DNA from: Desulfobaccales bacterium
GTDB taxonomy: Bacteria > Desulfobacterota > Desulfobaccia > Desulfobaccales > 0-14-0-80-60-11
Reading direction: 5' to 3'
DNA: 55,738 nt
NCBI GenBank assembly: GCA_041740935.1
Contig: JBGSLA010000009.1
Location: 1 to 55,738, forward strand
The notes under the pieces were generated by a model. That model was not told the origin of the DNA. It worked only from the letters and a program-made list of their open reading frames with translations, and did not search any database. Below, piece by piece: positions 23,165 through 47,084 of this stretch (the stretch's first letter is position 1; each line of letters starts with the position of its first letter). Both the position numbers and the translations under genes were made by a program.

Positions 23165-23198
23165 GTGCCACTCCTTTTCTCTAAGCACCGGGGTCCGG

Positions 23199-23687
23199 TT
23201 ACCAGTCCGTTACTTCGCCCTTGGCGATCTTTTCCTGAAACTCCGTCCAGACATCCGGAGACAGATTCTTCAGATCCCAGTTGTAAGGATACTGGCCGGC
23301 GATGCCACCACAAGGCGGCTGGGGCCGCCAGCCCCGCAAGGGCCGGCCCCGGATGCTGAACTTCACCATGTCGGGCACACCCAGATAGATATGCCGCGGC
23401 AAGCACTCGAAGGGCCGGGTTTTGCCCGGAGTGCCCATGGGGAAGTTGATATAGCCCTCCAAGGGCTTGTCGGCGTACAGCGGCATGGTATCCGGCTTGG
23501 TTCCCGCCGGCTGCTCATCCGGACCCGTATACATGTGCCCCTGGATCATGTGAATGGCGTAAACCGTGCCGCAGTTGGCGCAGTTGACCGTACCCTTCCA
23601 GTTCCAGAAGCAGTAGGGATCCAGGTAGTTCACCGTGTTGCAGGGCTTGCCCTCTACGTCTTTTTTGCACCAAATGATATCACACAC
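23199..23687 (-). CDS. hypothetical Cys/Trp-rich protein (possible zinc ribbon)
   Basis: 162 aa. GTG start with AAGGAGGAG upstream. MCDIIWCKKDVEGKPC...YC...NCANCG. Confidence 0.6.
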   Translation of the reverse strand: MCDIIWCKKDVEGKPCNTVNYLDPYCFWNWKGTVNCANCGTVYAIHMIQGHMYTGPDEQPAGTKPDTMPLYADKPLEGYINFPMGTPGKTRPFECLPRHIYLGVPDMVKFSIRGRPLRGWRPQPPCGGIAGQYPYNWDLKNLSPDVWTEFQEKIAKGEVTDW

Positions 23688-23702
23688 AGTGCTCTCCTCC
23701 TT

Positions 23703-27128: not shown

Positions 27129-27165
27129 GTACGAAATGTGACCCTAATTCCAGGTCATTTCGTAC
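27129..27165 (-). terminator. hairpin overlapping the stop codon of the activator gene
   Basis: gtacgaaatg(tg)acc ... ggtcatttcgtac. On the minus strand it is followed by aataatttatt, which is only moderately U-rich. Confidence 0.35.
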
Positions 27166-29867: not shown

Positions 29868-29896
29868 TTGACAAGATAAACCGCCTAGATTATGGT
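29868..29896 (+). promoter_or_regulatory. candidate sigma-70 promoter of the export/methylation cluster
   Basis: TTGACA (29868-29873), 17-nt spacer, TATGGT (29891-29896). Confidence 0.45.
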
Positions 29897-29999
29897 AAAA
29901 AGCTTAGACAAACCCCGGTTTAAGCCCGGCGCCGCCCCGCCTGTCGCAGGAAGCGCCCGGGCCCAGACCAGAGAACCTTCAAACCGGTTTGACTTCATT

Positions 30000-30824
30000 A
30001 TGGGTCCCGACAGCCACCGCGCCAGTATTCCTGGTTTAGTCCGACTTTACTTACGGCACCGCCACCTGACCTGGGAGATGATCAAGCGTGATGTCATGGA
30101 CCGCTACGCCGGGCAGATGTTCGGGCCCTTCTGGACCATCGGCCATCCCCTGTTCCTGATGGTGATTTATGTGGTGGTCTTTACTTTTATTTTCTCCTTA
30201 AAGACTGACGGCTCCTATGACTTTCCCCTGGATTACCCCACCTATATTATAAGCGGCCTGATCCCCTGGATGGCCTTCCAGGAATCCATGACCAGGGGGA
30301 CCACCGCCATTTTGGCCAACGCCGACCTGGTGAAACAGGTGGTGTTTCCCCTGGAGATCCTGCCGGTTAAAACCATATTTTCCTCTTTGATCACCCAGGG
30401 CGTGGCCACCCTGTTTCTTATGGGTTACGTGTTGATCAAATATCACTATCTGCCCTGGACCTACAGTTTGCTGCCGATCCTGTGGTTTTTTCAATTCCTG
30501 GCCATGGCCGGCGTCGGGTTTTTTTTGGCCTCGGTGGGGGCCTATTTCCGGGATCTGAAAGATATCGTGCAGGTGTTCAGCATCGCCTGCCTGTATCTGA
30601 TTCCGGTGTTATTTCTGCCCATTTGGGTGCCCCGCTGGCTGCACCCGGTTTTTTACGCCAATCCCTTTAGTTATATGGTGTGGTGCTACCAGGATGCCTG
30701 TTACTTCGGCCGCTTTGCCCATCCCTGGGCCTGGCCGGTGTTCATTATTCTCAGCCTGGTAACGTTTGTGCTGGGCTATCGCACTTTTTATAAATTAAAG
30801 GTTATGTTCGGCAATGTCCTCTAA
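30000..30824 (+). CDS. wzm: ABC-2 type polysaccharide/polyol-phosphate export permease
   Basis: Six-TM ABC-2 profile (RDVMDRYAGQMFGPFWTIGHPLFLM...). ATG 30000 is preferred because ATG 29892 lies inside the putative -10 box. Confidence 0.8.
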   Translation: MGPDSHRASIPGLVRLYLRHRHLTWEMIKRDVMDRYAGQMFGPFWTIGHPLFLMVIYVVVFTFIFSLKTDGSYDFPLDYPTYIISGLIPWMAFQESMTRGTTAILANADLVKQVVFPLEILPVKTIFSSLITQGVATLFLMGYVLIKYHYLPWTYSLLPILWFFQFLAMAGVGFFLASVGAYFRDLKDIVQVFSIACLYLIPVLFLPIWVPRWLHPVFYANPFSYMVWCYQDACYFGRFAHPWAWPVFIILSLVTFVLGYRTFYKLKVMFGNVL

Positions 30825-31062: not shown

Positions 31063-32025
31063 ATGGGGTCTATGGCTTTCCTGCAACGCGTGCTGGAAAT
31101 ATTTTTGTTTTCAAAACCCGACCACGAGCAACCTGCCGACCTCCCCCTGGCCCAGGCGCAGGTTCTGGAGGATTCCCCGGAAGACAAGGAGCCGGTGCAA
31201 CCGGCCAATTTGCGACCCCTGGACGCCGGCCCGGAGGCCCTGCAGCGGGATGTGGACTATGCTCTGGGGGGCGGGCGGATGTATCTGGCTATCCTGGCCG
31301 GGGAATTCCTCAAGGACAAAACGGTCCTGGAGATCGGCCCGGGGACCAACTTCGGCTTCCCTCTGATCATGGCCTGTCACGGGGCCAAGGTCATGGTGGC
31401 GGATAGATTTCTCACTCCCTGGGATGACAATTACCACCCCAAATTTTACAGCCAATTGCGGGATAGCCTCAAAAAGCACTGGGCCCTGATCGACACCACC
31501 CCCCTGGATCGGATCCTCTCAGTGAGCGACTATGCTCCCGAAAGCATCACGCTTTATTCCTCTGCCCTGGAGGAGCTTTCCGTAGTCCCGGACCAGAGCG
31601 TGGATGTGGTGATTTCCAATGCGGTTCTGGAACACGTCTACGATCTGCCCACAGCCTTTGCCCATCTGGCCCGGGTCACCAAACCCGGCGGCCTGGGCTT
31701 CCACCAGGTGGATTTTCGGGACCATCGGGATTTCTCCCGGCCCCTGGAGTTCCTCCTGTTTGAAGATCAGGAGTTTCGGGAGGAGTTCGATTACCGCCAG
31801 GGAGAATGCGGCAACCGCTGCCGGCCCCTGGAGATGCGGCAATTATTTGAGCAGGCCGGCTTTGACGTGAACATCTTTCATCCCAATATGTTTGCCGAAG
31901 AGGAGTATTTCGCCGAATTTCTGGAGCGCCTGCGCCAGGCCCCCGACTCCTGCTATTGTCAGTATCCTGCCGAAGATCTCTGCTTCATTTCAGGTCTGTT
32001 CGCGGTGGCCAGGAGGCCGGAGTAA
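31063..32025 (+). CDS. class I SAM-dependent methyltransferase (paralogue of 46140-47084)
   Basis: VLEIGPGTNFGFPLIMACHGAKVMVADRF (motif I), VDVVISNAVLEHVYD, TKPGGLGFHQVDFRDH. Confidence 0.8.
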   Translation: MGSMAFLQRVLEIFLFSKPDHEQPADLPLAQAQVLEDSPEDKEPVQPANLRPLDAGPEALQRDVDYALGGGRMYLAILAGEFLKDKTVLEIGPGTNFGFPLIMACHGAKVMVADRFLTPWDDNYHPKFYSQLRDSLKKHWALIDTTPLDRILSVSDYAPESITLYSSALEELSVVPDQSVDVVISNAVLEHVYDLPTAFAHLARVTKPGGLGFHQVDFRDHRDFSRPLEFLLFEDQEFREEFDYRQGECGNRCRPLEMRQLFEQAGFDVNIFHPNMFAEEEYFAEFLERLRQAPDSCYCQYPAEDLCFISGLFAVARRPE

Positions 32026-32076
32026 AAAATCATTTGCCAGGAACTCCTTAACAAAATTGGGGCCGGAATTTGTAAT

Positions 32077-33021
32077 GTGGAATTGACTGTGATAAATCCT
32101 CATTTCGATGAAAATATCGTTGTGTGGCAAGATGTCTATTCGGGTAAATATCAGCCGGTTAATTATGATATTCAATTTGATGATGAGTGGAAATTTTTCT
32201 TAGAGAAGAAGATCGGTTTTTTTAAACATACTGGTGTAGAAATTGATGATAAATGGATTAATGACCGGATATCCGAGTTAACCGGCATGAAACATTATAT
32301 AGAAACAAAAAAATATGGGCAGTTTTTGGGTAGATATATTTTTAATTTAAAGCAATATTTTGGCGACAGCGAACAAAGACGTAATATCGGCGGACGTTTG
32401 TTATTAGAGCCGAAATTTCCATTTGACCACTTTCAGGGGAAAAGGAGTTTGGATATCGGCTGTGGCGCCGGACGCTGGACCAAAACCTTGATGCTTCTGG
32501 GGGCCAAGGTAAAATCAGTAGACGTCTCGGAACATGCTCTGATCTCTACGAAACGCATAAATAATGATGTTGAATATTTAAATCTTTTTGACATAATTAA
32601 GAGCCGGCCTGATCTTCATGAGTCTTTCGATTTTACCATGTGCTGGGGGGTGGTTCAGCATACCCATGACCCCAAACTGGCTTTTGAAAATGTCGCCAAA
32701 ACCTTAGCCTCTCATGGAGAGCTCTATACGATGATTTATGCCCCCGGCCAACACGATTCAGAAACAATTATGAATCAACGAAAACACTTTCATAAAAATT
32801 TAACAACTATCGAAGACAAGCTGCAGTATGCCTACGACATATCGGATTGCCCGGAAAATTGTATTAATCAATTTGATATGTTAAATACATTTTATAATTG
32901 GGTGGTTCCTGAAGAAGTGATTTATAAGTGGTATCGGCAAAACGGGTTTGAGAATATTATTACACTGAACGCACATCAAAAAGAAAAAAGTGCGTTTCAT
33001 CTTGTCGGGAAAAAATTATAG
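32077..33021 (+). CDS. class I SAM-dependent methyltransferase (AT-rich gene)
   Basis: SLDIGCGAGRWTKTLMLLGAKVKSVDVSEHAL; FDFTMCWGVVQHTHDP. GTG start is uncertain. Confidence 0.75.
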   Translation: MELTVINPHFDENIVVWQDVYSGKYQPVNYDIQFDDEWKFFLEKKIGFFKHTGVEIDDKWINDRISELTGMKHYIETKKYGQFLGRYIFNLKQYFGDSEQRRNIGGRLLLEPKFPFDHFQGKRSLDIGCGAGRWTKTLMLLGAKVKSVDVSEHALISTKRINNDVEYLNLFDIIKSRPDLHESFDFTMCWGVVQHTHDPKLAFENVAKTLASHGELYTMIYAPGQHDSETIMNQRKHFHKNLTTIEDKLQYAYDISDCPENCINQFDMLNTFYNWVVPEEVIYKWYRQNGFENIITLNAHQKEKSAFHLVGKKL

Positions 33022-33105
33022 AAATGAGCAAAGCTAAGTTAAGGTCTTTGACGTTTTATGTATTCGCCAAGCGCACATGAAGTTGGTAAATGCTGCATAA
33101 GTACC

Positions 33106-34416
33106 ATGGCAAACGATATCGCTATCGAGGTAAAAAACCTCTCGAAAATATTCAAGATATACCACCGGCCGTCGGATCTGGCCTGGGAGATCATCCGGGG
33201 CAAGCCGAGACATCGGGAGTTTTGCGCCCTGCATGATGTTTCCTTTGAGGTGAAACGGGGCGAGGTGGTGGGCTTCATCGGCCGCAACGGCGCCGGTAAA
33301 AGCACCCTGCTGAAGATCCTGGCGGGCACCCTGGACAAAACCAGTGGCGAGGTGGCGGTCAACGGCACCCTGTCGGCCATCCTGGAGTTGGGCTCGGGTT
33401 TTAACAAGGAATACACCGGCCGGCAGAACATCCAGATGGGGGGCCTGTGCCTGGGCATGAGCCGCAAGGAGATCGAGGCCAAGACCGACTGGATCATTGC
33501 CTTCAGCGAATTGGCGGAATTTATCGACCAGCCCTTCAAAACCTATTCCTCCGGGATGCAGGCCCGCCTCACCTTCGCCACCGCCGCGGCGGTGGAGCCG
33601 GATATCCTGATTATTGATGAAGCCCTGTCGGTGGGGGACGCCCGCTTTCGGCTGAAATGCTTTTCCCATCTGCGCAATCTGAGCGCCAAGGGCACCACCA
33701 TCCTCATGGTGTCCCACGACACCAATGCCGTCACCTCCACCTGCAACCGGGCCGTTTTCCTGGAAAAGGGGGGGATTGTGGAGATCGGCCCGCCCCAGGA
33801 AGTCACCGCCCACTACTTGAGATTTCTTTACGGCATGAATAACGCCTCCCAGGAGGCCCCCACACCTGACCAGGAGGCCGCGGCGGACGAGGTCGGGTTT
33901 GGAGGGGAGCAGGCGCCCACCACCGTTGGGGCACCGGCGCCCGAGGCGCTGCGGCCCGACTCCGGGAGCACCCGTCAGGCGGAAATCCGCGCTCTGGTCA
34001 TTGTCGATGAAGCCGGCCAGGTGGTAAACCGGCTAAGGGTGGGAGGCTCGTATCGCCTGGTCATGGAGGTGCAGTTTTATCAGCCGGTGGCCGCGCCCAC
34101 GGTGGGTTTTCTCATCCGCGACCAACAGGGCGTTGAGCTGTTCGGCACCAACACGGAGCTTTTGGGCCTTGAGCTGCCAGCCGGTCAGGCCGGCTCGCGC
34201 TATGAATACAGCCTGAGCGTGGTGATGAATATGGTCAACGGGCCGTTTTTTCTCACCGGCGCCATAAGCGCCAAGGATGCCGACGGCTCCTGGACCCACC
34301 TGGACAGCTGCTATGACAACCTTCCTTTTGAGGTGATTCACCAACCGAAAACCGTGCATGACGCCTCGGTGGTAAATTTAAATCCAATATTCAGCTTTGC
34401 AGCGAGGAATACTTGA
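33106..34416 (+). CDS. wzt: ABC exporter ATP-binding protein with C-terminal extension (Wzt-like)
   Basis: Walker A GRNGAGKST, signature YSSGMQARL, Walker B ILIIDEALS, plus a ~150-aa beta-rich C-terminal domain after an Ala/Pro/Glu linker. Confidence 0.85.
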   Translation: MANDIAIEVKNLSKIFKIYHRPSDLAWEIIRGKPRHREFCALHDVSFEVKRGEVVGFIGRNGAGKSTLLKILAGTLDKTSGEVAVNGTLSAILELGSGFNKEYTGRQNIQMGGLCLGMSRKEIEAKTDWIIAFSELAEFIDQPFKTYSSGMQARLTFATAAAVEPDILIIDEALSVGDARFRLKCFSHLRNLSAKGTTILMVSHDTNAVTSTCNRAVFLEKGGIVEIGPPQEVTAHYLRFLYGMNNASQEAPTPDQEAAADEVGFGGEQAPTTVGAPAPEALRPDSGSTRQAEIRALVIVDEAGQVVNRLRVGGSYRLVMEVQFYQPVAAPTVGFLIRDQQGVELFGTNTELLGLELPAGQAGSRYEYSLSVVMNMVNGPFFLTGAISAKDADGSWTHLDSCYDNLPFEVIHQPKTVHDASVVNLNPIFSFAARNT

Positions 34417-35846
34417 TGGAAACCGCCCCGAAATTAAGTCTCGGAGATGACCAGGTAAAGATTGTTTTCATACCCGAACAGGACGAACCGCAGCCTCATG
34501 GCGTAATTCCCCAAAAGATTCAAGGTGTTCTGAACGCCTTGACCTCCTGGTTCAAAGGGGGCGGCGCCACCGGCCGCATCCCGGGGCTGGATGACAGCAT
34601 CAGGCCGGAGCATTATGCCGACACCCTGGTCGCGGTCCATACCCATGAGTTAACCCCGCTGCAGCGCGACATCCTCCAGCGCAATATTCCAGTGCCGGAA
34701 ATCATGCGGGGCGCGGTGGCCAGCTTTGACGTGGATAATATCTCTGATGACTATTCCATCGATTTTTTGATCCATTGCGCCATTCCCAATGTGGTGCTGC
34801 TCCGCCTGGATACCTATATCCGCCTGAGGCAGCAGCATATTCCGGTGAAAACCGGCGATGCCCCGGACCGTCTGGCCATCCGGATGAATGATTTTGATAC
34901 CTGGAGATACTGTCTGGACGGCCGGGAATACTTCCAGTACGTGGCGCTGGCCACCGAAATCTGCAATTATCACTGTGTGATGTGCCCCTTTCACAGCAAA
35001 AGTGAACAATGGGTCTTTCAGCAGATCCGCCGGCCCCAGAACCGCAGGGTGCATCTGACCCCGGACCTGCTGGAGGAGTTCCTGCGGGGTCTGCCCCCCA
35101 AGACCGTGCGCCTGGGGGCCAACGGCGAACCCTTTCTCAACCCCCAGATTTTCGAGCTCATCGCCCTGGTGAAGGAAAAGGGCCATCAGATCTGCGTCCA
35201 GACCAACGGCAGCTTTCTCACCCCGGAAGTCTTGCACCGCCTGGCGGAGCTCCAGGTGGACCAGTTCAACTTCGGCATGGAAGGCATCACCCCCGAAACC
35301 TACGGGGCGATTCGCCAGGGGGGCGACCTGAACAAAATTGTCGCCACCCTGGAAAACATCCGCCGCCTGCGGGACCAGGGCAAGGCCCATTGGACGGCTT
35401 CCATCAATTATCTTGAATTGCCCGAACTCCCCTTTACCCGTCAGCAGGTGGCCGATTTTTACCGGGGCAAGGTGGACGTGGTGAATTTTTGCCGCTCCTT
35501 CTGCGACCCGCCCACGGAACACACCTTCACCGACCAGGAAGTGGAGGCCAGCATTCGGACCCTCCCCGGCTACTGCTACACCACCCTGCACGGGCCGGTG
35601 CTGGGGCCCCGGGGACATATTCTGCCCTGCGGCCTGGCCAGCAATTGTGAGTGGTTTGAGGATTTGCACTGGACTTTCAGGATTCAGGACCTGCCCCTGG
35701 CTGAAATCAATGAACGCTATAAAGCCGCGCTTCAGGACGATACCTCGGACATGCGGCAGCTCTGTAAAAGATGCACCTTCTGGTCCCACGCCTATCGTCA
35801 GAAAGGCACCCTGACCAGCACCTATTACCATGAAGAAATTCTGTAA
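34416..35846 (+). CDS. radical SAM protein with unique ~190-aa N-terminal domain and Cys-rich C-terminus
   Basis: CNYHCVMC (CxxxCxxC), GANGEPFLNP, and C-terminal Cys motifs (CRSFC, CYTT...PCGL..NC, CKRC). The ATG overlaps the wzt stop (TGATG). Confidence 0.8.
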   Translation: METAPKLSLGDDQVKIVFIPEQDEPQPHGVIPQKIQGVLNALTSWFKGGGATGRIPGLDDSIRPEHYADTLVAVHTHELTPLQRDILQRNIPVPEIMRGAVASFDVDNISDDYSIDFLIHCAIPNVVLLRLDTYIRLRQQHIPVKTGDAPDRLAIRMNDFDTWRYCLDGREYFQYVALATEICNYHCVMCPFHSKSEQWVFQQIRRPQNRRVHLTPDLLEEFLRGLPPKTVRLGANGEPFLNPQIFELIALVKEKGHQICVQTNGSFLTPEVLHRLAELQVDQFNFGMEGITPETYGAIRQGGDLNKIVATLENIRRLRDQGKAHWTASINYLELPELPFTRQQVADFYRGKVDVVNFCRSFCDPPTEHTFTDQEVEASIRTLPGYCYTTLHGPVLGPRGHILPCGLASNCEWFEDLHWTFRIQDLPLAEINERYKAALQDDTSDMRQLCKRCTFWSHAYRQKGTLTSTYYHEEIL

Positions 35847-35901
35847 AATCCAAAGGCTTCAGGACCTAAGCAGAAAAATCAGGATTGGATGATTACCGTT
35901 C

Positions 35902-37281
35902 ATGGGCCTTCTCAAGGAAAAGCTTTTGCTGCCTACGGTCATTCTCAGCTCGTCCGAAATATCCCGTCTCTCTGCCGCCGACATCGACACCTGGAGGCGT
36001 GAGGCGTCCTGGCTGCTCATTGCCTTCGGGGAGAGCAGCCCCGAGTATCTCCAGGAAATCTCGTCCCATATCGCTGCCTGGGCCCCTGAGCCGCGAGCCC
36101 TGGTTATCGACGCCGGTCGATTTTTTGAAAAATCCCCCTGGAAGCCCCCCGCCATCACCAGGGAACACCTGCCCCTGGTCGCCGGGATTCATCTCGCCGA
36201 GTGGGACCGGGATGAGCTGCTCAAAACTTTATCCAAACTAACCCCGGCGGAGCTGTCAGCCTGGCCGGCCCTGCAGTTGGGATATGAACAGGCCTATGCC
36301 CTCCTGTATCGCCACAGCGATTACTACTACCAGGCCGGCGCCCTGGTCACCGATTTTTGCAATCTGCGCTGTGAGATGTGCATGTTCCACAGCGCCAATG
36401 AGGCGGACTATCAATTCCGCCAGCTGCGCCGGGCCGACCGCGTCCAGCAGGAAATTTCCCCGGAAATAATGTTCTCCTATATCGACCAACTGCTGCCCGG
36501 CGCCGGCATCCTGTTTTCGTCCTCCGGCGAACTGTTCATGTCGAAACGGGCCCTGGAATATATCGAATATGCTGCCAAGCAGGGCAAATCCCCCCTGGTC
36601 ATCACCAACGGCATGTTGCTCACCCCGGAAGTGTCCGCCCGGCTGTTGGCCGCCGGGGTGTCCCACTTCATTGTCAGCGTCGACGGCCACACCGCCGACC
36701 TGTACCACAAGAGGCGCAAGGGGGGGGATTTCGCCAGGATCTTGCATCATATCCAGCAGCTGCGGTTGTTGATCGACAGGCACAAACATAAGGCCACCAT
36801 TGACGTCAACACTATCCTGTTCGCCGACCTGGAAGCCCAGAAACACGAAATTATCGATTTCTGGCGGGACAAAGTCGACCAGTTGACCTTTTTGGTGGAG
36901 CGCCTCGATTACCTGGGGAAACCCCGGCAGCTGTTGTTTGAACCCGCGCCGGTGCGGCTGTGCCTGGAGCCCATGTCCGGCCCCCTGCTCCTGGCCAACG
37001 GCCTGATCGCGCCCTGCTGCAGCGTGGCCATCGCCGAATGGTTTGAGCCCATGGAGTGGCTTCTGGACATCAAAAAGACCCCTCTCGACCAGGCCTTGAA
37101 AACCTATCGCCTGATGATGCTGGATAAAGACAGTCCCTTGCGGGAGTATTGTTCCCGGTGTCATTACTGGGCCAACAGTTTTTGGCAAAACGGCCGCTCC
37201 CCGTTCAGTGAAATACATCACTTTGACAAACCCAAAAGTTTTTTCAATAAAATTAAAAACGCTGTTGGATTATGGGAATAA
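35902..37281 (+). CDS. radical SAM protein, paralogue of 34416-35846
   Basis: CNLRCEMC, SSSGELFMS, and C-terminal CLEP...PCCS...CSRC. The N-terminal domain differs from its neighbour's. Confidence 0.8.
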   Translation: MGLLKEKLLLPTVILSSSEISRLSAADIDTWRREASWLLIAFGESSPEYLQEISSHIAAWAPEPRALVIDAGRFFEKSPWKPPAITREHLPLVAGIHLAEWDRDELLKTLSKLTPAELSAWPALQLGYEQAYALLYRHSDYYYQAGALVTDFCNLRCEMCMFHSANEADYQFRQLRRADRVQQEISPEIMFSYIDQLLPGAGILFSSSGELFMSKRALEYIEYAAKQGKSPLVITNGMLLTPEVSARLLAAGVSHFIVSVDGHTADLYHKRRKGGDFARILHHIQQLRLLIDRHKHKATIDVNTILFADLEAQKHEIIDFWRDKVDQLTFLVERLDYLGKPRQLLFEPAPVRLCLEPMSGPLLLANGLIAPCCSVAIAEWFEPMEWLLDIKKTPLDQALKTYRLMMLDKDSPLREYCSRCHYWANSFWQNGRSPFSEIHHFDKPKSFFNKIKNAVGLWE

Positions 37282-37973
37282 CCTTTTCCTTCCTGCCGTT
37301 TTTTGACCGGTGCCATCGCCGCCGGGCCCTCCAAAGTCCTGTATTGGCACTGGGATCATTGGAAATTCACGAACCTGAAGATGAGATTATTGCTTTCGGA
37401 AAAAAACATGCGTATCCGAATTTACTGAAAGACAAGACGGTCAGAAGTTTATTGTTGGATAGATATGGCATTGATCAGTATCAAGACTGTGATATCAATG
37501 AACAAGCCGATATGCAGGTGGATTTAAATTTTGCCGTTGACCAAAATCTGGCCGGATCGGCGGCGACCATTCTGGATGGCGGGACCTTGGAGCACCTCTT
37601 TGATATCAGACAGGCCCTGGCCAATATCCACCAGATGGTGAGACAGGGGGGGACCATCATTCACATAAGTCCCTTGACCTGGTTCGATCACGGTTTTTAT
37701 AATTTCAATCCAAAATTGTTTAAAGGCCTGATCAAGGCCAACGGCTACGAATTTCTGGTGGAAGCGTTCTGGATTCCCTCAACTCCAAAAAGGTTTTTCC
37801 GGCAAAAAACGGAGCCTCAAATCTTTATAACCTTTGACGGCAAAGAAGATTCTGAGGCAATTAAAAAGATGGAGAAACATTTTTATCATCAACTAATTCC
37901 GGCTAATTCTCTTTATATGATTGCCTATAAAAAAGAGAGCGACAACAATTTCCAATATCCATACGATATGTAG
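37272..37973 (+). CDS. putative methyltransferase-fold protein (degenerate motif I)
   Basis: ILDGGTLEHLFDIRQALANIHQMVRQGGTIIHISP fits the post-motif-II region of class I methyltransferases. The N-terminal glycine motif is unclear. It overlaps the upstream gene by 10 nt. Confidence 0.5.
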   Translation: MGITFSFLPFFDRCHRRRALQSPVLALGSLEIHEPEDEIIAFGKKHAYPNLLKDKTVRSLLLDRYGIDQYQDCDINEQADMQVDLNFAVDQNLAGSAATILDGGTLEHLFDIRQALANIHQMVRQGGTIIHISPLTWFDHGFYNFNPKLFKGLIKANGYEFLVEAFWIPSTPKRFFRQKTEPQIFITFDGKEDSEAIKKMEKHFYHQLIPANSLYMIAYKKESDNNFQYPYDM

Positions 37974-38026
37974 TTTACATATAATTGGGGCACATTTTTT
38001 TAAGGGGTTTTTTTACATTAACTTCT

Positions 38027-38983
38027 ATGGAATATATACCATGTAATCTTTGTGGGAGTGACCATTCCACGGTGCTTTTCCGTTGCAAGGATTATTTTCT
38101 CAATATTTCAGACGTAGAATATGCCGTAGTAAAATGCCGGGAGTGCGGCCTGGTCTATGTCAACCCCCGGCCCACCGAAGAAGAGATTTCCTCTTTATAT
38201 ACGGCTGAATATTACCGGGCCGATCTCACCCCGGAGGAGCTGTTAGGGGAACGAAAAGAGCAGCTGCTGGCCAAATTTGCCAGAGTAAAGCATCTCCCTC
38301 CCGGACGGTTGCTGGATATCGGCTGCCAAAAGGGGGAGTTTCCTTTTTTTATGAGCCAGAAGGGCTGGGAGGTCCAGGGGGTGGAATTTTTCCCCGGCCC
38401 CCCCAATCTGTTCGGGGTGGATATTTTTTATGGGAACCTGACTGACGCGGGCTTCCCGTCCGAGACTTTCGATCTGGTGACCCTGTGGGCCGTCCTGGAG
38501 CACGTGTATTACCCCCGGGAAATGCTGGAGGAAGTTCACCGCATCCTGAAGCCGGGGGGGGCGGTGGTGCTGCTGGTGACCAATATCCACAGCATTCCCG
38601 GGCGCTTCCTGAGGCATGACGACATTCCCCGGCACACCACCCTGTTTTCCCGGCGCACGATCTCCAGGATGCTGGAGATAACCGGTTTTCAGCCCCGGGC
38701 CGGTTATTACGGGAACGACATTTTCAACGGCTCCACCAGGGGGGTGCTGAATTATCTTGTCAAGCTGGCGGCCGGCGAACGGCTGCCGGATATTGTGGCC
38801 CAAAACCGCATCGCCGGCAAATGGCATGAATTTTCCGGCCAACTCTGTGGCAGAGATTCCCGGTTCATGAGTTTCATCGACCGCACCGATATCGCGTTGA
38901 CGCCGTTTTTGGATCGCCTGGTGGACCGCCTGGGTCTGGGTTTCATCATGACCGTGGAGGCCAAAAAGGTTGAGCAAGGGTGA
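38027..38983 (+). CDS. class I SAM-dependent methyltransferase with N-terminal zinc ribbon
   Basis: CNLCGS...CRECG ribbon; LLDIGCQKGEFPFFMSQKGWEVQGVE; FDLVTLWAVLEHV; LKPGGAVVL. Confidence 0.8.
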   Translation: MEYIPCNLCGSDHSTVLFRCKDYFLNISDVEYAVVKCRECGLVYVNPRPTEEEISSLYTAEYYRADLTPEELLGERKEQLLAKFARVKHLPPGRLLDIGCQKGEFPFFMSQKGWEVQGVEFFPGPPNLFGVDIFYGNLTDAGFPSETFDLVTLWAVLEHVYYPREMLEEVHRILKPGGAVVLLVTNIHSIPGRFLRHDDIPRHTTLFSRRTISRMLEITGFQPRAGYYGNDIFNGSTRGVLNYLVKLAAGERLPDIVAQNRIAGKWHEFSGQLCGRDSRFMSFIDRTDIALTPFLDRLVDRLGLGFIMTVEAKKVEQG

Positions 38984-39043: not shown

Positions 39044-40636
39044 ATGAATTCTGCTGCGGATAACCATTTTGAAGACAGTTACACCAAAATCTTGGCGGTA
39101 TTTACCGAGCTGGGCTATCCCCAGGATCTCATCGGGCAGTGGAGCCTGCCCCGGCAGGATGCCAGGACCCTCATGGATATTCTCCAGGACTGCCGCCCCC
39201 GCAACATCCTGGAGGTGGGCACCTTTGTGGGCATGACCACCCTGATGATGGCCTTGATGAGCCCCCCGGACACCCATATACATTCCATTGACCCCAATTT
39301 TCCCCTGAAAACGGAAATGGAGTCCATGCGCAGCAAATTATTTGACTTTGACACAACCATTAAGGCTCAGGATCTGGCGCTGCAGGCCGCGCAACGGTTG
39401 GGCATTGATAATAAAATTACCTTTCACGAGGGAGGTTTTTCCACGAGCAACACCTTTGCTTCTTATAATACCTCGCCGTCAAGTCGCATTTCTATTGTGG
39501 GTCCGGATATCTGCAGCCAATATGGTCCGTTCGATTTTATTTTTGTCGACGGCCTGCATTATGAAGACGATGTTTTTTCCGATATATCTTTGGCCGCTCA
39601 ATATATCCTGCCATCGAAATTTATTGCCATCCATGACGTCTTGGGTCGCTGGGGTGGGAATGTCAGACGGGCCCTCTTCAGATTCCTGGAAAACCACTCA
39701 GATTACCACTTTTCCCATGGCCATTTCTCCAAGGTATTTGAATCAATCGGCCTGTTGCAACGTTCCCCCTGGGACCCCGGGGCATATCATCAACCCATAG
39801 ACCAGGAAATCAGCTCCGGCAGCATTATTCAGGACAAATTACTGTCAAACTTAGCAGCACTTCTGGTCAATTTATTCAATCCGTCCAGTGTGGTGCAACT
39901 TGGGGGCAATATCGATCTTTCAAGGAAAATACAAGAATTGGGGGTGTCCGAGGTCGCGGCATTCATCTCCACCCCTCCGGAAACCGCCGGGGGATCCGTC
40001 CCCATCACCGTGTTCAACCCCCAGGAGGCCGTCCCTCTCGAGAAGAGGTATGATCTGTGTCTCTGTCTGGAAATTATGGATGTGGTGCCCCAGGAAGCCG
40101 TTGACCGGCTGCTCCAGGCTTGTGTGGAGGCCAGCGACACTATTATCTTTGCCTGCTCTCCCCCGGGAGAAATGGGAAAATATCAACCGAACAACAAGCC
40201 GTTAACGTATTGGATAAAAAGGTTTTTTGAAAAAGGGTATCTTTTCCATGATGTGATCCGCCCTGTTCTCGAACCGCATGTAGAGGTGTTATATGCAGAG
40301 AATTATAGAAATTCATCTTATTTGCTTAATATATATTTAGTAAAAAAAGACGATAGATTGGAATCAGATTTGGTGGATAAGGCATTTTTAGAGGAAATTA
40401 TGGTCAGCAAAGGAAGAAGAATAGAAGACTTGGAGCTCCAAAATCTCTATCAAAAATGTATTATTCAGAAGGATATAACCCTTGAAATAATAGATGGATA
40501 TGAGAATATTTGCAGAGAATTCGATAAAATAAAAAATTATTATGAATCTATTCATTTATTCAATAATAAAGTATTCAGCAATACCATTAAAAGAGCCAAA
40601 GAAATTATAGGCGGCCTTTTCCAAAAGAAAGAATAA
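39044..40636 (+). CDS. two-domain methyltransferase-like protein with C-terminal coiled coil
   Basis: Domain 1 is O-methyltransferase-like (ILEVGTFVGMTTLMMA ... FIFVDGLHYEDDV). Domain 2 has VVQLGGN...YDLCLCLEIMDVVP...IIFACSP. The C-terminal ~110 aa are AT-rich and heptad-like. Confidence 0.65.
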   Translation: MNSAADNHFEDSYTKILAVFTELGYPQDLIGQWSLPRQDARTLMDILQDCRPRNILEVGTFVGMTTLMMALMSPPDTHIHSIDPNFPLKTEMESMRSKLFDFDTTIKAQDLALQAAQRLGIDNKITFHEGGFSTSNTFASYNTSPSSRISIVGPDICSQYGPFDFIFVDGLHYEDDVFSDISLAAQYILPSKFIAIHDVLGRWGGNVRRALFRFLENHSDYHFSHGHFSKVFESIGLLQRSPWDPGAYHQPIDQEISSGSIIQDKLLSNLAALLVNLFNPSSVVQLGGNIDLSRKIQELGVSEVAAFISTPPETAGGSVPITVFNPQEAVPLEKRYDLCLCLEIMDVVPQEAVDRLLQACVEASDTIIFACSPPGEMGKYQPNNKPLTYWIKRFFEKGYLFHDVIRPVLEPHVEVLYAENYRNSSYLLNIYLVKKDDRLESDLVDKAFLEEIMVSKGRRIEDLELQNLYQKCIIQKDITLEIIDGYENICREFDKIKNYYESIHLFNNKVFSNTIKRAKEIIGGLFQKKE

Positions 40637-40679
40637 ACTACTTGAAATATCAATGAAACAATTTTAGGTCGTTTATAAT

Positions 40680-42380
40680 ATGAGACGATTTGTAACAGGA
40701 GGGATAATAGGGATACTTGTGGTTTTGGCCGGCATCTGGGGCTATACTGCGGTCTTTTCCCATCCACCGAAAATCATCCAACAAGACCTCACCGGGCCGT
40801 TCAAACACGAACAAGGCCATTGCTGGGTAGCGGAGCTGCCGGCCTTGGCCGGGTGGGCGGACAGCCAGCCGCAACAGGAAAACTCCACCCTGATGATTTA
40901 TGAAGACGGCCGTCCTTTGGGGCCGGCCCACGCCCAGCACGACAATATCCGGAAAATGGGGCAAGGGAGATTTTCCCATTGGGGGGAGGCGTTATATTTT
41001 TCCACCCGCGACAACTCAGACCCCAACACCAATGGAAAGCATTATACTATAACCGCATCTCCGGTGTCCTATTATCTCAAAATCACCAGACAGACTGTTT
41101 TAATTCTTTTGGGTCTCATTTTAGCCGGGGGGATCGGCGGCTTGGTTTTCATGACTTTTTTCCTAACCGGTTCAAAAATAAAAATATGGTTTATTATTCT
41201 TGCTTTAGTAAATACAGGAATTATTTACTTTCTTTTTTTAAATATTATTAATCCGATTGTCTGGTATGGAAAATTTGGTTATATATTACTTTTTCTTTTT
41301 TATTTGTTGGCTTTTTCAAGCTTATTTTTGTTGTTTCATGAAATAATTAACAACCAATTAATAAACGGCTGGAGGAAGTTGGCCTGCAGTATATTTTATC
41401 TCTGGGCCATCCTGGGTACCTTTGCTTTGCTCTTTGAAATATTTTTTCGAATAATTCCTGTCTATGACACCCTGGCGCTCAATCCGGGAGTAAAATATTT
41501 TTGGCCGGATTATAATAATTTCCCCATAAATTCCATGGGGTATCGGGATCGCCCTTTTACTGCCAAGGAAAATCCTCATACATTCCGGATCCTGGTGGTG
41601 GGCGATTCATTTACCGAGGGGTCCGGGTGCCGGCGGGAAGAGACTTTTGCGGGGGTCCTGGAGCACCAACTGAACCAGCGCTTTCAAAGAAAAGATTGTC
41701 CCAACTGGGTGGAGGTGTATAATCTGGGGCGCTGCGGGGCCAACACGGTGGAGGAGGTCCATCGCATTTTGACGGAGGGGCCGATCCTGAAGCCGGATCT
41801 GATTATTTTGGCCTATGTATTAAATGATCCGGAGAACCATCCCCCGGATATAAAATTTTTCAATCCACCCCCTTGGGCTTCGGTGATTCATAAAGTTTTT
41901 CTGGATGAAGTGAATTCATACGCCTACTATTGGTTTTTTACCAAATTTACGGTCTTTCGCGGGACAGTGTCGTCTTCAGATGATTATTGTGTAGCGGTTC
42001 ATGATGACAATTACCAAGGACTCATAAATGCGAAGGCAGCCCTGGTCCAGTTAAAAAAATATCTGCAAGAAAACAACATTGATTTTCTTGCCATAATTTT
42101 TCCACAATTCAAGCAAGGTGAATATCCTCTTAAATTAAAGAAATTACATGAACAAGTATTCCAGATGATGCAGGTATATAATTTCGAAACGGTTGATCTC
42201 TTGAAATTTTTTGAAAAAATCAATAAGAATTTAGGCGTATTTGCCTTCAGTGTCTATGATCAACACCCTAATGCTTTAGCGCATAAACTGGTGGGGAATT
42301 TTTTGGCTGAGTCCATGGGTAAACGGGAGTCTTTTGTCCGGGCCTGGGAGAATTGCGGTCCCGAGGTGGTTTCCAGGTAA
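40680..42380 (+). CDS. polytopic membrane protein with C-terminal SGNH/GDSL hydrolase domain
   Basis: N-terminal TM, a ~110-aa loop domain, about 5 TM helices, then FRILVVGDSFTEGSG (block I Ser) and a C-terminal DQHPN-type block. Confidence 0.7.
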   Translation: MRRFVTGGIIGILVVLAGIWGYTAVFSHPPKIIQQDLTGPFKHEQGHCWVAELPALAGWADSQPQQENSTLMIYEDGRPLGPAHAQHDNIRKMGQGRFSHWGEALYFSTRDNSDPNTNGKHYTITASPVSYYLKITRQTVLILLGLILAGGIGGLVFMTFFLTGSKIKIWFIILALVNTGIIYFLFLNIINPIVWYGKFGYILLFLFYLLAFSSLFLLFHEIINNQLINGWRKLACSIFYLWAILGTFALLFEIFFRIIPVYDTLALNPGVKYFWPDYNNFPINSMGYRDRPFTAKENPHTFRILVVGDSFTEGSGCRREETFAGVLEHQLNQRFQRKDCPNWVEVYNLGRCGANTVEEVHRILTEGPILKPDLIILAYVLNDPENHPPDIKFFNPPPWASVIHKVFLDEVNSYAYYWFFTKFTVFRGTVSSSDDYCVAVHDDNYQGLINAKAALVQLKKYLQENNIDFLAIIFPQFKQGEYPLKLKKLHEQVFQMMQVYNFETVDLLKFFEKINKNLGVFAFSVYDQHPNALAHKLVGNFLAESMGKRESFVRAWENCGPEVVSR

Positions 42381-46139: not shown

Positions 46140-47084
46140 ATGGTGTTGTTATCCATGAATTGTTCCTTTGCTTCACATTGGAAAACCCAATTATTAAAAA
46201 GTTATTACTATGTCTATGAAGTAATCAAGTCAATAATCATTTATCCCGGCGACCCGGTGAATTTTCGGCCGCTGGACGCCTCGCCCGAGGCCCTGCAAAG
46301 AGACGTGGAATATGCCGCGTCCAATGCCAATTTTTGGATCAGCTTATTACCGGAAGACCAAATATACCTCAAAGGCCGAACCGTCCTGGAAATCGGGCCG
46401 GGGAGCAACTTCGGCATTCCGCTGATTTTCGCCTGCCACGGCGCGAGGGTCATGGTGGTCGACCGGTTTATCACCCCCTGGAGCGCTGACTATCATCCTA
46501 AATTTTATGCCCTGTTGCGGGAGACGGTGCAGGAAAAATGGCCCGGCATTGATCCGACGCCACTGGAGACGGTGCTTGCCCAGGGGCGATATCCGGAAGA
46601 GGTCATTACTCTCTGGCGGGGTTCGGTGGAGGAACTGACGGACGTCCCGGACCGCAGCGTTGATCTGGTGGTGTCCAACGCAGTTTTGGAACATCTGTAC
46701 GATGTGCCGACGGCCTTTTCCCAGTTGGCCCGGATTACCAAACCGGGGGGCCTTGGCATTCATCAGGTGGATTTTCGCGACCACAGTAATTTCTCCCGCC
46801 CCCTGGAATTTCTGTTGTATCGGGAAGAAAGGTATTACGGCATCGAAAAGATCACCCATGTGGAATTCGGCAATCGCTGCCGCCCCTGTCAGATGTGGAG
46901 GTTGCTGGAGCAGGCGGGCTTTGCGGTGCGGGATTTTCGCCCCGATATCTTTGCGGATGAGGAGTATTTAGAGGAATTCCTGGGGCGTCTGCGGCAGGCC
47001 CGCAAATCGCCCTATCGCGACTATGCCGCCGAGGACCTGCGGCCCCTGTCAGGTCTGTTATACATGGTGCGGCAGGAGGGGTAA
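46140..47084 (+). CDS. class I SAM-dependent methyltransferase (paralogue of 31063-32025)
   Basis: VLEIGPGSNFGIPLIFACHGARVMVVDRF, VDLVVSNAVLEHLYD, TKPGGLGIHQVDFRDH. Collinear with the 31063 protein over almost its full length. Confidence 0.8.
   Translation: MVLLSMNCSFASHWKTQLLKSYYYVYEVIKSIIIYPGDPVNFRPLDASPEALQRDVEYAASNANFWISLLPEDQIYLKGRTVLEIGPGSNFGIPLIFACHGARVMVVDRFITPWSADYHPKFYALLRETVQEKWPGIDPTPLETVLAQGRYPEEVITLWRGSVEELTDVPDRSVDLVVSNAVLEHLYDVPTAFSQLARITKPGGLGIHQVDFRDHSNFSRPLEFLLYREERYYGIEKITHVEFGNRCRPCQMWRLLEQAGFAVRDFRPDIFADEEYLEEFLGRLRQARKSPYRDYAAEDLRPLSGLLYMVRQEG

What the first reader, a model, noticed from the sequence alone, without database searches (positions are those of the whole stretch)
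34416..37281. Twin radical SAM proteins with unrelated ~190-aa N-terminal domains and Cys-rich tails, embedded between wzt and methyltransferases
Both proteins carry CxxxCxxC (CNYHCVMC, CNLRCEMC) at about residue 190-200 and share the downstream core (GANGEPFLNP / SSSGELFMS, TNG..LTPEV). Both end in extra Cys motifs (CRSFC...C...PCG...C...CKRC versus CLEP...PCCS...CSRC), which suggests auxiliary Fe-S clusters (SPASM/twitch-like). Their N-terminal domains differ from each other and I do not recognise either one. The first gene is stop-start coupled to wzt (TGATG). Auxiliary-cluster rSAM enzymes usually act on peptides or cofactors, yet I find no convincing precursor-peptide ORF nearby. In a glycan-export context they might perform C-methylation, epimerisation, dehydration or C-C/C-S crosslinking of a sugar or lipid.
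Basis: partly seen in the sequence, partly recalled or inferred. Interest (0 to 1): 0.65.

Follow-up and report, generated by a model that had tools for sequence, protein, structure and literature searches.

The report
Paired radical-SAM enzymes in O-antigen export locus
Two related iron-sulfur "radical SAM" enzymes of a rare, uncharacterised subfamily sit directly behind the exporter gene of a cell-surface polysaccharide in several distant bacteria, so they most likely tailor a sugar of that polysaccharide, possibly the end-cap the exporter recognises, by chemistry not yet described for such pathways.

Summary
Window 34416-35846 (RS1, 476 aa) and 35902-37281 (RS2, 459 aa) encode paralogous radical SAM proteins, 31% identical over the core and tail. 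They are translationally coupled to wzt (TGATG) and to a downstream methyltransferase-like gene.

- Only four C-terminal Cys are conserved, in 31/31 family members (C-x12-G-x4-C ... C-x2-C). That is the first half of the SPASM motif, so this is a one-cluster "twitch" domain, not full SPASM.
- The N-domains are about 170 and 140 aa, not 190. They are probably diverged homologues, with the same predicted alpha/beta element order and a profile-profile P of 3.7e-4. They match no Pfam, NCBIfam or PDB sequence.
- No curated rSAM family claims either protein.

The family is rare: about 22 clusters at 50% identity among 1.84 billion representatives. In 7 of 10 independent loci the gene directly follows a wzt that carries a cap-binding domain. 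Five loci keep the RS1-then-RS2 order. No conserved small ORF exists, so a peptide-maturase role is unlikely.

The best reading is a sugar-tailoring twitch rSAM pair, with BtrN/SpeY-like C-H abstraction and oxidation, serving a capped, heavily methylated, ABC-exported glycan. The chemistry and the substrate are inferred, not shown.

The parts
29892..30824 (+). wzm, ABC-2 permease of the polysaccharide exporter
   Evidence: Pfam ABC2_membrane 47.2 bits; NCBIfam Wzm/RfbD-like, weak
31063..32025 (+). class I SAM methyltransferase
   Evidence: Pfam Methyltransf_23/11; same position in L007
32077..33021 (+). class I SAM methyltransferase in a low-GC (0.39) segment
   Evidence: Pfam Methyltransf_11/23/12; GC profile
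33058..34416 (+). wzt, exporter ATPase with a C-terminal carbohydrate (cap)-binding domain (aa 305-431, nt about 33970-34350)
   Evidence: Pfam ABC_tran 83.5 bits and Wzt_C 91.6 bits. The CBD matches the solved A. aeolicus (8dky, 6o14) and E. coli O9a (2r5o) Wzt CBDs.
34416..35846 (+). RS1, radical SAM protein of the RS1-type clade. N-domain about nt 34416-34925, core from about 34929, twitch tail to about 35795.
   Evidence: Its ATG overlaps the wzt stop.
34962..34985 (+). RS1 CxxxCxxC (CNYHCVMC), the SAM-cluster motif
   Evidence: Translation; invariant in 31/31 sequences
35574..35774 (+). RS1 twitch motif C387-x12-G400-x4-C405 ... C450-x2-C453, predicted to bind one auxiliary Fe-S cluster
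   Evidence: Translation; invariant in 31/31; weak Pfam SPASM match
35902..37281 (+). RS2, radical SAM protein of the RS2-type clade. N-domain about nt 35902-36321, core from about 36325, twitch tail to about 37191.
   Evidence: AlphaFold pLDDT 93.6
36358..36381 (+). RS2 CxxxCxxC (CNLRCEMC)
   Evidence: Translation; invariant
36961..37161 (+). RS2 twitch motif C354-x12-G367-x4-C372 ... C417-x2-C420
   Evidence: Translation; invariant in 31/31
37272..37973 (+). 233-aa methyltransferase-like protein. Its start overlaps the RS2 stop by 10 nt. It follows the rSAM gene(s) in 6 loci.
   Evidence: Weak Methyltransf_12 hit, E 0.0017. Weak match to juvenile-hormone acid methyltransferase structures.
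37985..38983 (+). class I SAM methyltransferase
   Evidence: Pfam Methyltransf_23 80.8 bits
39044..40636 (+). Methyltransf_24 (TylF-like O-methyltransferase class) with a long C-terminal extension
   Evidence: Pfam Methyltransf_24 39.3 bits. TylF/MT_24 genes also occur in L001, L006, L007, L008 and L010.
40680..42380 (+). membrane protein with a C-terminal SGNH/GDSL domain
   Evidence: Pfam Lipase_GDSL_2; also present in L001, L005 and L007
42434..44344 (+). AsnB-type glutamine amidotransferase
   Evidence: Pfam Asn_synthase 358 bits; also in L005, L006, L007, L008 and L013
44353..45480 (+). GT4 glycosyltransferase
   Evidence: Pfam Glycos_transf_1 and Glyco_transf_4
46140..47084 (+). class I SAM methyltransferase at the end of the locus
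   Evidence: Pfam Methyltransf_11/23

Best explanation
RS1 and RS2 are two anciently duplicated members of a rare, uncharacterised subfamily of twitch-type radical SAM enzymes. Each has a family-specific alpha/beta N-domain, a SAM-cleaving [4Fe-4S] site (CxxxCxxC) and one auxiliary Fe-S cluster held by four Cys. They belong to the export and decoration module of a polysaccharide that is made in the cytoplasm, capped at its non-reducing end and exported by Wzm-Wzt.

Most likely mechanism (inferred, not shown). The 5'-deoxyadenosyl radical abstracts a hydrogen from a sugar carbinol carbon. The resulting radical is oxidised through the fully ligated auxiliary cluster to a keto sugar, as in BtrN or SpeY, or is quenched to give an epimer. 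The product is then handed to the co-translated methyltransferase-like protein and the TylF-type methyltransferases.

I think the target is more likely a residue of the lipid-linked polymer, in particular its terminal cap residue, than a free nucleotide sugar.

Shown: gene structure, motifs, conservation, fold class and synteny. Inferred: cluster binding, substrate, reaction and the link to the cap.
For: Enzyme class:
- Radical_SAM scores above the Pfam cutoff in both proteins.
- Seven Cys are invariant in 31 sequences: 3 for the SAM cluster and 4 in the pattern CX12GX4C...CX2C.
- That pattern is the first half of the SPASM motif as defined in PMC6231123. The paper describes twitch as a truncated SPASM with one cluster, fully ligated by four Cys in BtrN.
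- 19 of 22 tails hit Pfam SPASM weakly.
- The models are confident: pLDDT 93.6 and 86.1, with a hairpin and helix at the motif.

Sugar lean:
- The best solved relatives by sequence profile are BlsE, DesII and BtrN.
- By fold they are DesII, BlsE, MoaA, EpeE, BtrN and SpeY.

Glycan module:
- The gene directly follows wzt(Wzt_C) in the window, L001, L002, L005, L007, L008 (Phaeospirillum tilakii) and L010. Meanwhile the glycosyltransferases and sugar-nucleotide genes differ between these loci.
- Translational coupling links wzt, RS1, RS2 and the MT-like gene.
- The MT-like gene is conserved in 6 loci.
- Wider relatives are fused to FkbM/MT_23 methyltransferases and to a sulfotransferase.

Cap context:
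- A CBD on Wzt marks cap-dependent export (PMC9445017).
- The window CBD is homologous to solved cap-binding CBDs.

Dehydrogenase rather than epimerase: no extra Cys is conserved across the family. The title of the HygY paper, cited in PMC10991966, says that mutating a single Cys turns that twitch epimerase into a dehydrogenase.
Against: - No biochemical datum exists for any member.
- Similarity to BtrN, SpeY, BlsE and DesII is confined to the generic core and twitch. TM-score normalised to the query is about 0.4, profile E-values are 1e-5 to 1e-11, and every NCBIfam score is far below its cutoff.
- The same lists contain peptide-modifying enzymes (CteB, SuiB, EpeE, anSME) and cofactor enzymes (MoaA, NifB).
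- SPASM/twitch sequence clustering is a poor predictor of function (PMC6231123).
- Three loci (L006, L009, L013) show no wzt next to the gene.
- The Wzt CBD diverges from 74% to 16% identity across loci, so one common cap cannot be claimed.
- Ordinary methyltransferases in the locus could make the cap alone.
- L001 and L002 do carry sugar-nucleotide epimerase/dehydratase genes, which leaves a nucleotide-sugar substrate open.
Confidence: 0.4

Rival explanations
1. The two enzymes act on a free nucleotide sugar, as BlsE and DesII do. They would make an unusual monomer (deoxy, keto, decarboxylated or epimerised) that glycosyltransferases then build into the polymer.
For: The top solved relatives, BlsE and DesII, both use nucleotide-linked sugars. 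An invariant Arg and a family-specific insertion after CxxC (FHS...Y.F...R) could bind a diphosphate. L001 and L002 carry NDP-sugar epimerase/dehydratase genes nearby.
Against: The window locus, L005, L007 and L008 have no sugar-nucleotide pathway genes beside the rSAMs. The linkage that stays constant is to wzt-CBD and the methyltransferases, not to any glycosyltransferase or NDP-sugar gene. TIGR04466 (BlsE) and TIGR04426 (DesII) score 19-32 bits against cutoffs of 400-450. The DesII N-domain is six helices (PMC11434129), unlike the alpha/beta N-domain here.
Confidence: 0.25
2. The rSAM(s) together with the co-translated methyltransferase-like protein carry out radical C-methylation or another C-C bond formation on a sugar, giving a branched or carbocyclic sugar. 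This would not be a simple oxidation or epimerisation.
For: A divergent class I methyltransferase-like protein is coupled to the rSAM in 6 loci. Relatives are fused to methyltransferase domains. Two-component rSAM-plus-methyltransferase systems for C-C bond formation exist (own knowledge: C10P/C10Q).
Against: There is no B12-binding or HemN-like domain. The fold class is SPASM/twitch, whose sugar-acting members are dehydrogenases, epimerases, a decarboxylase and a deaminase. The MT-like protein has a degenerate motif I, so SAM binding is not assured.
Confidence: 0.1
3. They modify the lipid part of the glycolipid (the undecaprenyl carrier, lipid A or another membrane lipid) by radical C-H chemistry.
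For: Tes/GDGT-MAS appears among the NCBIfam, PDB-sequence and fold matches. A membrane SGNH protein recurs in the loci.
Against: The Tes matches are weak and cover only the core. No lipid-synthesis genes co-occur. Both proteins lack predicted membrane segments in the models.
Confidence: 0.05
4. They are peptide or protein maturases (RiPP, sulfatase-type or other), as most SPASM/twitch enzymes are. On this view their place in a glycan locus is incidental.
For: CteB, SuiB, SkfB, EpeE, ChlB and anSME are among the fold matches. Several RiPP maturase models give weak NCBIfam hits.
Against: No conserved small ORF lies outside the large genes in seven loci; every conserved short frame is a shadow of a known gene. 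Intergenic gaps are 0-55 nt around the genes. The N-domain has no RRE or any other known domain signature. The glycan context recurs in distant loci. No sulfatase gene is nearby.
Confidence: 0.04

Closest known systems
BtrN (2-deoxy-scyllo-inosamine dehydrogenase, butirosin pathway; PDB 4M7T) and SpeY (twitch rSAM dehydrogenase; PDB 7WZX)
   Same: Radical SAM core followed by a twitch domain with one auxiliary cluster fully ligated by four Cys: one before the beta-hairpin, one after it and two after the next helix (PMC6231123). The substrate is a sugar or cyclitol. Both are Foldseek matches with probability 1.0.
   Different: BtrN and SpeY are 250-300 aa with no N-terminal domain. Sequence similarity is limited (profile E 7e-6, core only). 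They act on small aminoglycoside intermediates in antibiotic pathways, not in an O-antigen/ABC-exporter locus.
BlsE (cytosylglucuronate decarboxylase; PDB 7VOB) and DesII (TDP-4-amino-4,6-dideoxyglucose deaminase; PDB 8HZV)
   Same: These are the best solved relatives by sequence and by fold. Both are sugar-modifying rSAM enzymes. DesII also has an N-terminal domain of about 130 aa before the core.
   Different: TIGR04466 and TIGR04426 score far below their cutoffs. DesII has a single cluster, and the paper describing its three domains never mentions an auxiliary cluster (no occurrences in the text). Its N-domain is six helices (PMC11434129), whereas the N-domain here is alpha/beta. TM-score is only about 0.4.
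HygY and NeoN (rSAM sugar epimerases of aminoglycoside pathways; HygY is described as a twitch enzyme)
   Same: Radical chemistry acting on a sugar carbon (HygY title cited in PMC10991966).
   Different: The HygY paper's title states that mutating one Cys unmasks dehydrogenase activity. No Cys beyond the seven cluster ligands is conserved across this family.
WbdD (E. coli O8/O9a chain terminator)
   Same: It is encoded in a Wzm-Wzt O-antigen locus. It modifies the non-reducing terminus, which halts polymerisation (PMC7685785), and such caps are read by the Wzt CBD (PMC9445017). From my own knowledge, wbdD lies directly after wzt, which is the position RS1 occupies here.
   Different: WbdD is a kinase/methyltransferase with a coiled coil and no Fe-S chemistry. 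There is no sequence or fold relation. A terminator role for RS1/RS2 is only a hypothesis.
NCBIfam NF033640 (N_Twi_rSAM, twitch-domain rSAM with an N-terminal extension)
   Same: Same overall layout: in the NF033640 profile the rSAM core starts at about position 119, so an N-terminal region precedes the core and the twitch tail. There are weak hits to the core (38.7 and 37.1 bits).
   Different: The scores are far below the cutoff of 170. The N-domain gives no hit to it.

Membership tests
Radical SAM superfamily (PF04055) | CxxxCxxC motif and a Pfam score above the gathering cutoff | tested here: met
   CNYHCVMC and CNLRCEMC; 68.4 and 57.3 bits against 29.5
Radical SAM superfamily (PF04055) | Partial TIM-barrel core with a GGE-like and a ribose (TNG) motif | tested here: met
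   G-E and T-N-G are invariant or nearly so in 31 sequences. The models match rSAM structures at Foldseek probability 1.0.
SPASM domain (two auxiliary clusters) | Seven-Cys motif CX9-15GX4C-gap-CX2CX5CX3C-gap-C (PMC6231123) | tested here: not met
   Only CX12GX4C and CX2C are present. There is no CX5CX3C or seventh Cys in RS1, RS2 or the 75 closest relatives printed.
SPASM domain (two auxiliary clusters) | Pfam PF13186 above the gathering score (21.5 bits) | tested here: not met
   13.4 and 14.9 bits on the isolated tails. 19 of 22 family tails match at E<=1, best 4.8e-6.
Twitch domain (one auxiliary cluster) | Truncated SPASM: Cys before and after a beta-hairpin plus Cys after the following helix | tested here: met
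   Four Cys invariant in 31/31. Hairpin and helices are predicted at RS2 aa 361-378 and RS1 aa 395-411.
Twitch domain (one auxiliary cluster) | The domain actually binds an Fe-S cluster | not testable with these tools
   Needs Fe/S analysis, EPR or Mossbauer spectroscopy on reconstituted protein
BtrN/SpeY-type sugar dehydrogenases | Close sequence relation to characterised members | tested here: not met
   BtrN gives profile E 7e-6 over 80 core residues only. Foldseek TM-score normalised to the query is 0.31-0.35.
BtrN/SpeY-type sugar dehydrogenases | Two-electron oxidation of a carbinol using SAM | not testable with these tools
   Needs an enzyme assay
BlsE (TIGR04466) and DesII (TIGR04426) | NCBIfam equivalog score above the cutoff | tested here: not met
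   27.8 and 31.6 bits against 400; 19.3 bits against 450
RiPP rSAM maturases | Precursor peptide gene in the neighbourhood | tested here: not met
   A six-frame scan of seven loci found no conserved short ORF outside the large genes
RiPP rSAM maturases | N-terminal RRE (PqqD-like) peptide-binding domain | tested here: not met
   The N-domain has no Pfam, NCBIfam or PDB sequence match. The predicted topology is alternating strand-helix with four strands. No structural comparison of the N-domain alone could be run.
Cobalamin-dependent (class B) rSAM methylases | N-terminal B12-binding domain | tested here: inconclusive
   There is no PF02310 hit at E<=10 in 23 N-domains. The N-domain is alpha/beta, but a fold comparison of the domain alone could not be run.
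O-antigen chain terminators / cap-forming enzymes (WbdD-like role) | Encoded with a CBD-bearing Wzt | tested here: met
   Wzt_C is directly upstream in 7 of 10 loci. The CBD is homologous to solved cap-binding CBDs.
O-antigen chain terminators / cap-forming enzymes (WbdD-like role) | Modifies the non-reducing terminal residue and stops polymerisation | not testable with these tools
   Needs genetics together with glycan structure analysis

The most novel reading that the evidence does not exclude
[quoted passage not shown] An rSAM enzyme, or a heteromeric pair of them, would oxidise or rearrange the terminal sugar, which is then methylated. That unprecedented terminal structure would both stop chain growth and serve as the ticket read by the Wzt carbohydrate-binding domain. 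It would be the first Fe-S/radical chain terminator in ABC-transporter-dependent glycan assembly.
Probability: 0.22. Interest if true: 0.8.

Novelty: new variant of a known kind. Interest (0 to 1): 0.5.

Why it matters
Known O-antigen caps are methyl, methyl-phosphate or Kdo (PMC9445017). The known tailoring enzymes in these pathways use polar chemistry. My literature searches found no paper linking radical SAM enzymes to WbdD-type termination or to Wzt cap recognition.

A conserved rSAM module welded to the exporter gene points to sugar modifications that cannot be made by ordinary chemistry, such as oxidation, epimerisation or branching at unactivated carbons. Those modifications would appear on a cell-surface polymer of anaerobes and phototrophs.

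The finding also defines a compact, testable subfamily: about 450 aa, a new N-domain and a four-Cys twitch. One member is in a cultured organism, Phaeospirillum tilakii. It adds a non-antibiotic, non-peptide context to the twitch enzymes.

Tried and rejected
- **Full SPASM assignment:** rejected. The second half of the motif is absent and Pfam SPASM is below threshold.
- **Membership in a curated rSAM family:** rejected. About 33-40 NCBIfam models hit only the core, and all are far below their cutoffs.
- **RiPP precursor:** a six-frame scan of seven loci gave only shadow ORFs inside conserved genes.
- **DesII-like N-domain:** Foldseek aligned 360-400 columns to DesII, but the DesII N-domain is all-helical (PMC11434129), so the resemblance is not in that domain.
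- **Identity of the N-domain:** Pfam, NCBIfam and PDB-sequence searches with 23 N-domains found nothing consistent.
- **PDB profile search with the tail alone:** no hits.
- **Same cap in all loci:** not supported, because CBD identity falls to 16-28%.
- **Genome-collection scans:** the scan with the mixed alignment failed for lack of a conserved stretch. The scan with the RS2 alignment found one species only.
- **Third word-index search with the 31-sequence profile:** added nothing new.
- **Xanthomonas papers mentioning both rSAM and wzt:** the two are unrelated in those papers.
- **Source organism of the window:** could not be named. There is no rRNA, tRNA or Rfam hit, and the cluster look-up gave no organism names.

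Full report
**1. What is there**

The window holds two adjacent plus-strand ORFs. RS1 is 34416-35846 (476 aa from the ATG; a TTG lies one codon upstream). RS2 is 35902-37281 (459 aa).

- Both pass Pfam Radical_SAM, with 68.4 and 57.3 bits against a cutoff of 29.5.
- Both carry CxxxCxxC: CNYHCVMC at nt 34962-34985 (aa 183-190) and CNLRCEMC at nt 36358-36381 (aa 153-160).
- The RS1 ATG overlaps the wzt stop as TGATG, with a GAGGA 8 nt upstream.
- RS1 and RS2 are 55 nt apart.
- The next gene, a 233-aa methyltransferase-like protein, starts 10 nt before the RS2 stop.
- BLASTP aligns RS1 aa 172-464 with RS2 aa 142-431 at 31% identity, E 2e-49. It aligns nothing in the N-terminal parts.

**2. The locus**

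From 29.9 to 47.1 kb the genes all lie on one strand:

- wzm
- two methyltransferases
- wzt (ABC_tran plus Wzt_C)
- RS1 and RS2
- the methyltransferase-like protein
- a methyltransferase
- a Methyltransf_24/TylF-class protein
- a membrane SGNH protein
- an AsnB-type amidotransferase
- one GT4 glycosyltransferase
- a 193-aa ORF
- another methyltransferase

The locus has patches of low GC, 0.39-0.44 against about 0.58. The Wzt C-terminal domain is homologous to the solved cap-binding domains of A. aeolicus (8dky, 6o14) and E. coli O9a (2r5o). Such a domain marks pathways in which the polymer gets a non-reducing-end cap that the exporter must recognise (PMC9445017).

**3. The Cys-rich tail**

I aligned 31 family members, 8 of RS1 type and 23 of RS2 type, with identities to the window proteins as low as about 20%. 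Exactly seven Cys are invariant. Three are the SAM-cluster Cys. Four are tail Cys: C387, C405, C450 and C453 in RS1, and C354, C372, C417 and C420 in RS2.

- The spacing is C-x12-G-x4-C, a gap of about 44 residues, then C-x2-C, with the Gly nearly invariant.
- This is the first half of the SPASM motif CX9-15GX4C-gap-CX2CX5CX3C-gap-C. By the definition in PMC6231123 it is therefore a twitch domain with one auxiliary cluster. Four ligands are available, as in BtrN.
CRSFC and C411 are in 3 of 8 RS1-type sequences. The second Cys of PCC is in 18 of 23 RS2-type sequences and in no RS1-type sequence.
- Pfam SPASM is below threshold on the window tails, at 13-15 bits. It is nevertheless hit by 19 of 22 family tails at E<=1, best 4.8e-6.
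- AlphaFold models built on the family alignment are confident: RS2 pLDDT 93.6 and pTM 0.89, RS1 pLDDT 86.1. They place a hairpin and helices at the motif.

**4. The N-terminal domains**

They are about 140 aa in RS2 and about 170 aa in RS1. The first ~70 residues of RS1 are variable, are largely missing in the L005 homologue and are modelled with low confidence.

- With six and nine sequences, the profile comparison was not significant.
- With 8 and 23 sequences, hhalign aligned RS1 62-134 with RS2 28-101 at P 3.7e-4 and probability 36%.
- The models show the same order of elements in both proteins: strand, helix, strand, loop, strand, helices, then the first barrel strand.
- I therefore consider them diverged homologues, but this is not proven.
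- The domain has no match in Pfam, NCBIfam or PDB sequences.
- It is not like the six-helix N-domain of DesII (PMC11434129).

**5. Family and relatives**

- No NCBIfam model comes near its cutoff. The best is 66 bits against 380, and all hits cover only the core.
- Word-index searches found 5 and 12 relatives.
- An exhaustive profile search of 1.84 billion representatives found about 22 clusters that match full length including the N-domain, and 85 with E<1e-30.
- The next relatives share only the core and twitch. Some have other or no N-extensions. Several are fused to FkbM or MT_23 methyltransferases, a sulfotransferase or MT_24. Some contain two to four tandem rSAM-twitch modules.
- A neighbour-joining tree separates an RS1-type clade from an RS2-type clade. 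The single-copy genes fall in the RS2 clade.
- By sequence profile the nearest solved structures are BlsE, DesII, BtrN, MoaA, Tes, ChlB, NifB and anSME.
- By fold they are DesII, BlsE, MoaA, CteB, ChlB, EpeE, BtrN, SkfB and SpeY, with TM-score normalised to the query around 0.4.
- So the sugar-modifying rSAM enzymes lead both lists, but not cleanly.

**6. Context elsewhere**

| Locus | Arrangement |
|---|---|
| L001, L005, L007, L010 | Repeat the window: wzt(Wzt_C), RS1-type, RS2-type, then the methyltransferase-like gene and/or a TylF methyltransferase |
| L002-L004 (one locus seen in three assemblies) | One RS2-type gene directly after wzm-wzt(Wzt_C) |
| L008 (Phaeospirillum tilakii KCTC 15012) | One RS2-type gene directly after wzm-wzt(Wzt_C) |
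| L006, L009, L013 | No wzt beside the gene; still methyltransferases, and in L006 and L013 also AsnB and glycosyltransferases |

- Seven of ten independent loci therefore have the gene directly behind a CBD-bearing wzt.
- The glycosyltransferases (GT2, GT4, double GT4) and the sugar-nucleotide genes vary between these loci.
- The methyltransferase-like protein is conserved in six loci. It has the post-motif-I features of class I methyltransferases but a degenerate motif I.
- Wzt CBD identity to the window falls from 74% to 16% across loci, roughly in step with RS2 identity. A single shared cap cannot be claimed.

**7. Peptide substrate**

I scanned seven loci in six frames for short ORFs of 15-100 aa. 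All conserved ones lie inside the large conserved genes, in other frames or on the other strand. None is intergenic. Gaps around the rSAM genes are 0-55 nt. Together with the lack of an RRE-like signature, this makes a RiPP or protein-maturase role unlikely.

**8. How it most likely works**

Shown:
- Two intact rSAM cores, each with a four-Cys twitch tail.
- An old duplication with a conserved gene order.
- Tight coupling to wzt-CBD and to a methyltransferase-like gene.

Inferred:
- Each enzyme binds two [4Fe-4S] clusters.
- The 5'-deoxyadenosyl radical abstracts H from a sugar carbon.
- The fully ligated auxiliary cluster takes the electron, giving a keto sugar as proposed for BtrN and anSME (PMC6231123). 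An epimer is the alternative outcome.
- No extra Cys is conserved across the family. That speaks, weakly, for dehydrogenation rather than Cys-dependent epimerisation (HygY title cited in PMC10991966).
- The product would then be processed by the adjacent methyltransferases.
- I favour a polymer-level target, possibly the terminal cap residue, for three reasons. The module travels with the exporter rather than with any glycosyltransferase or sugar-nucleotide gene. Four loci have no sugar-nucleotide genes beside it. The position after wzt is the one wbdD, the E. coli O9a terminator, occupies (gene order from my own knowledge; WbdD function from PMC7685785).
- Confidence in this whole statement is about 0.4. 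Confidence that the proteins serve the glycan pathway at all is about 0.75.

**9. Rivals**

- Nucleotide-sugar tailoring like BlsE or DesII: 0.25.
- Radical C-methylation or C-C bond formation together with the methyltransferase-like partner: 0.1.
- Lipid modification: 0.05.
- Peptide or protein maturation: 0.04.

**10. Novelty and verdict**

This is a real, rare and uncharacterised subfamily. It is a new variant of the twitch radical SAM enzymes, with its own N-domain and a new, conserved genomic home in cap-dependent ABC-exported polysaccharide loci. My literature searches found no report of radical SAM enzymes in this role. The function remains a well-framed hypothesis, so interest is moderate at 0.5. 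It would be high if the cap model were confirmed.

Noticed in passing
window 32001-33000, 37001-38000, 40001-42000: Patches of low GC (0.39, 0.44, 0.42-0.43) lie inside a locus that is otherwise 0.56-0.60 GC. The methyltransferase gene 32077-33021 sits in the lowest patch. This suggests mosaic acquisition of the decoration genes.
   Followed up: no
window 37272-37973: A 233-aa methyltransferase-like protein with a degenerate motif I (LALGS) and a conserved DGGTLEH...GG..H core. It is co-translated with RS2 and conserved after the rSAM gene(s) in six loci. It belongs to no curated family.
   Followed up: partly
proteins P0044-P0047, P0059, P0061, P0078: The wider twitch-rSAM clade contains giant proteins with two to four tandem rSAM-twitch modules. 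It also contains fusions to FkbM/MT_23 methyltransferases, a sulfotransferase and MT_24. Multi-rSAM cooperation and coupling to methyl or sulfo transfer seem common in this clade.
   Followed up: partly
L013:1338-11651: This locus has an RS1-type gene (P0033) without an RS2-type neighbour. It sits between two unrelated rSAM genes (CxxxCxxC at residue 11), a GT4 and an AsnB. A 440-aa neighbour has a CX9-15GX4C motif but no CxxxCxxC.
   Followed up: partly
window 49821-54941: A 1706-aa autotransporter (Autotransporter beta-domain, PATR, BNR/Sortilin-like repeats) lies downstream of the glycan locus.
   Followed up: no
window 27155-29509 (-): A large regulator whose translation carries the GAFTGA motif of sigma-54 activators, with N-terminal sensor regions. 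It is divergently placed about 380 nt upstream of wzm and could control the locus.
   Followed up: no
window 39044-40636 and 23163-24923: The Methyltransf_24 protein has about 330 C-terminal residues with no family match. The 586-aa ORF at 23163-24923 has no Pfam hit at all.
   Followed up: no
L006:5277-7901: AsnB-type amidotransferase fused to a TylF methyltransferase next to the RS2-type gene. This hints that amidation and O-methylation act on the same residue as the rSAM.
   Followed up: no
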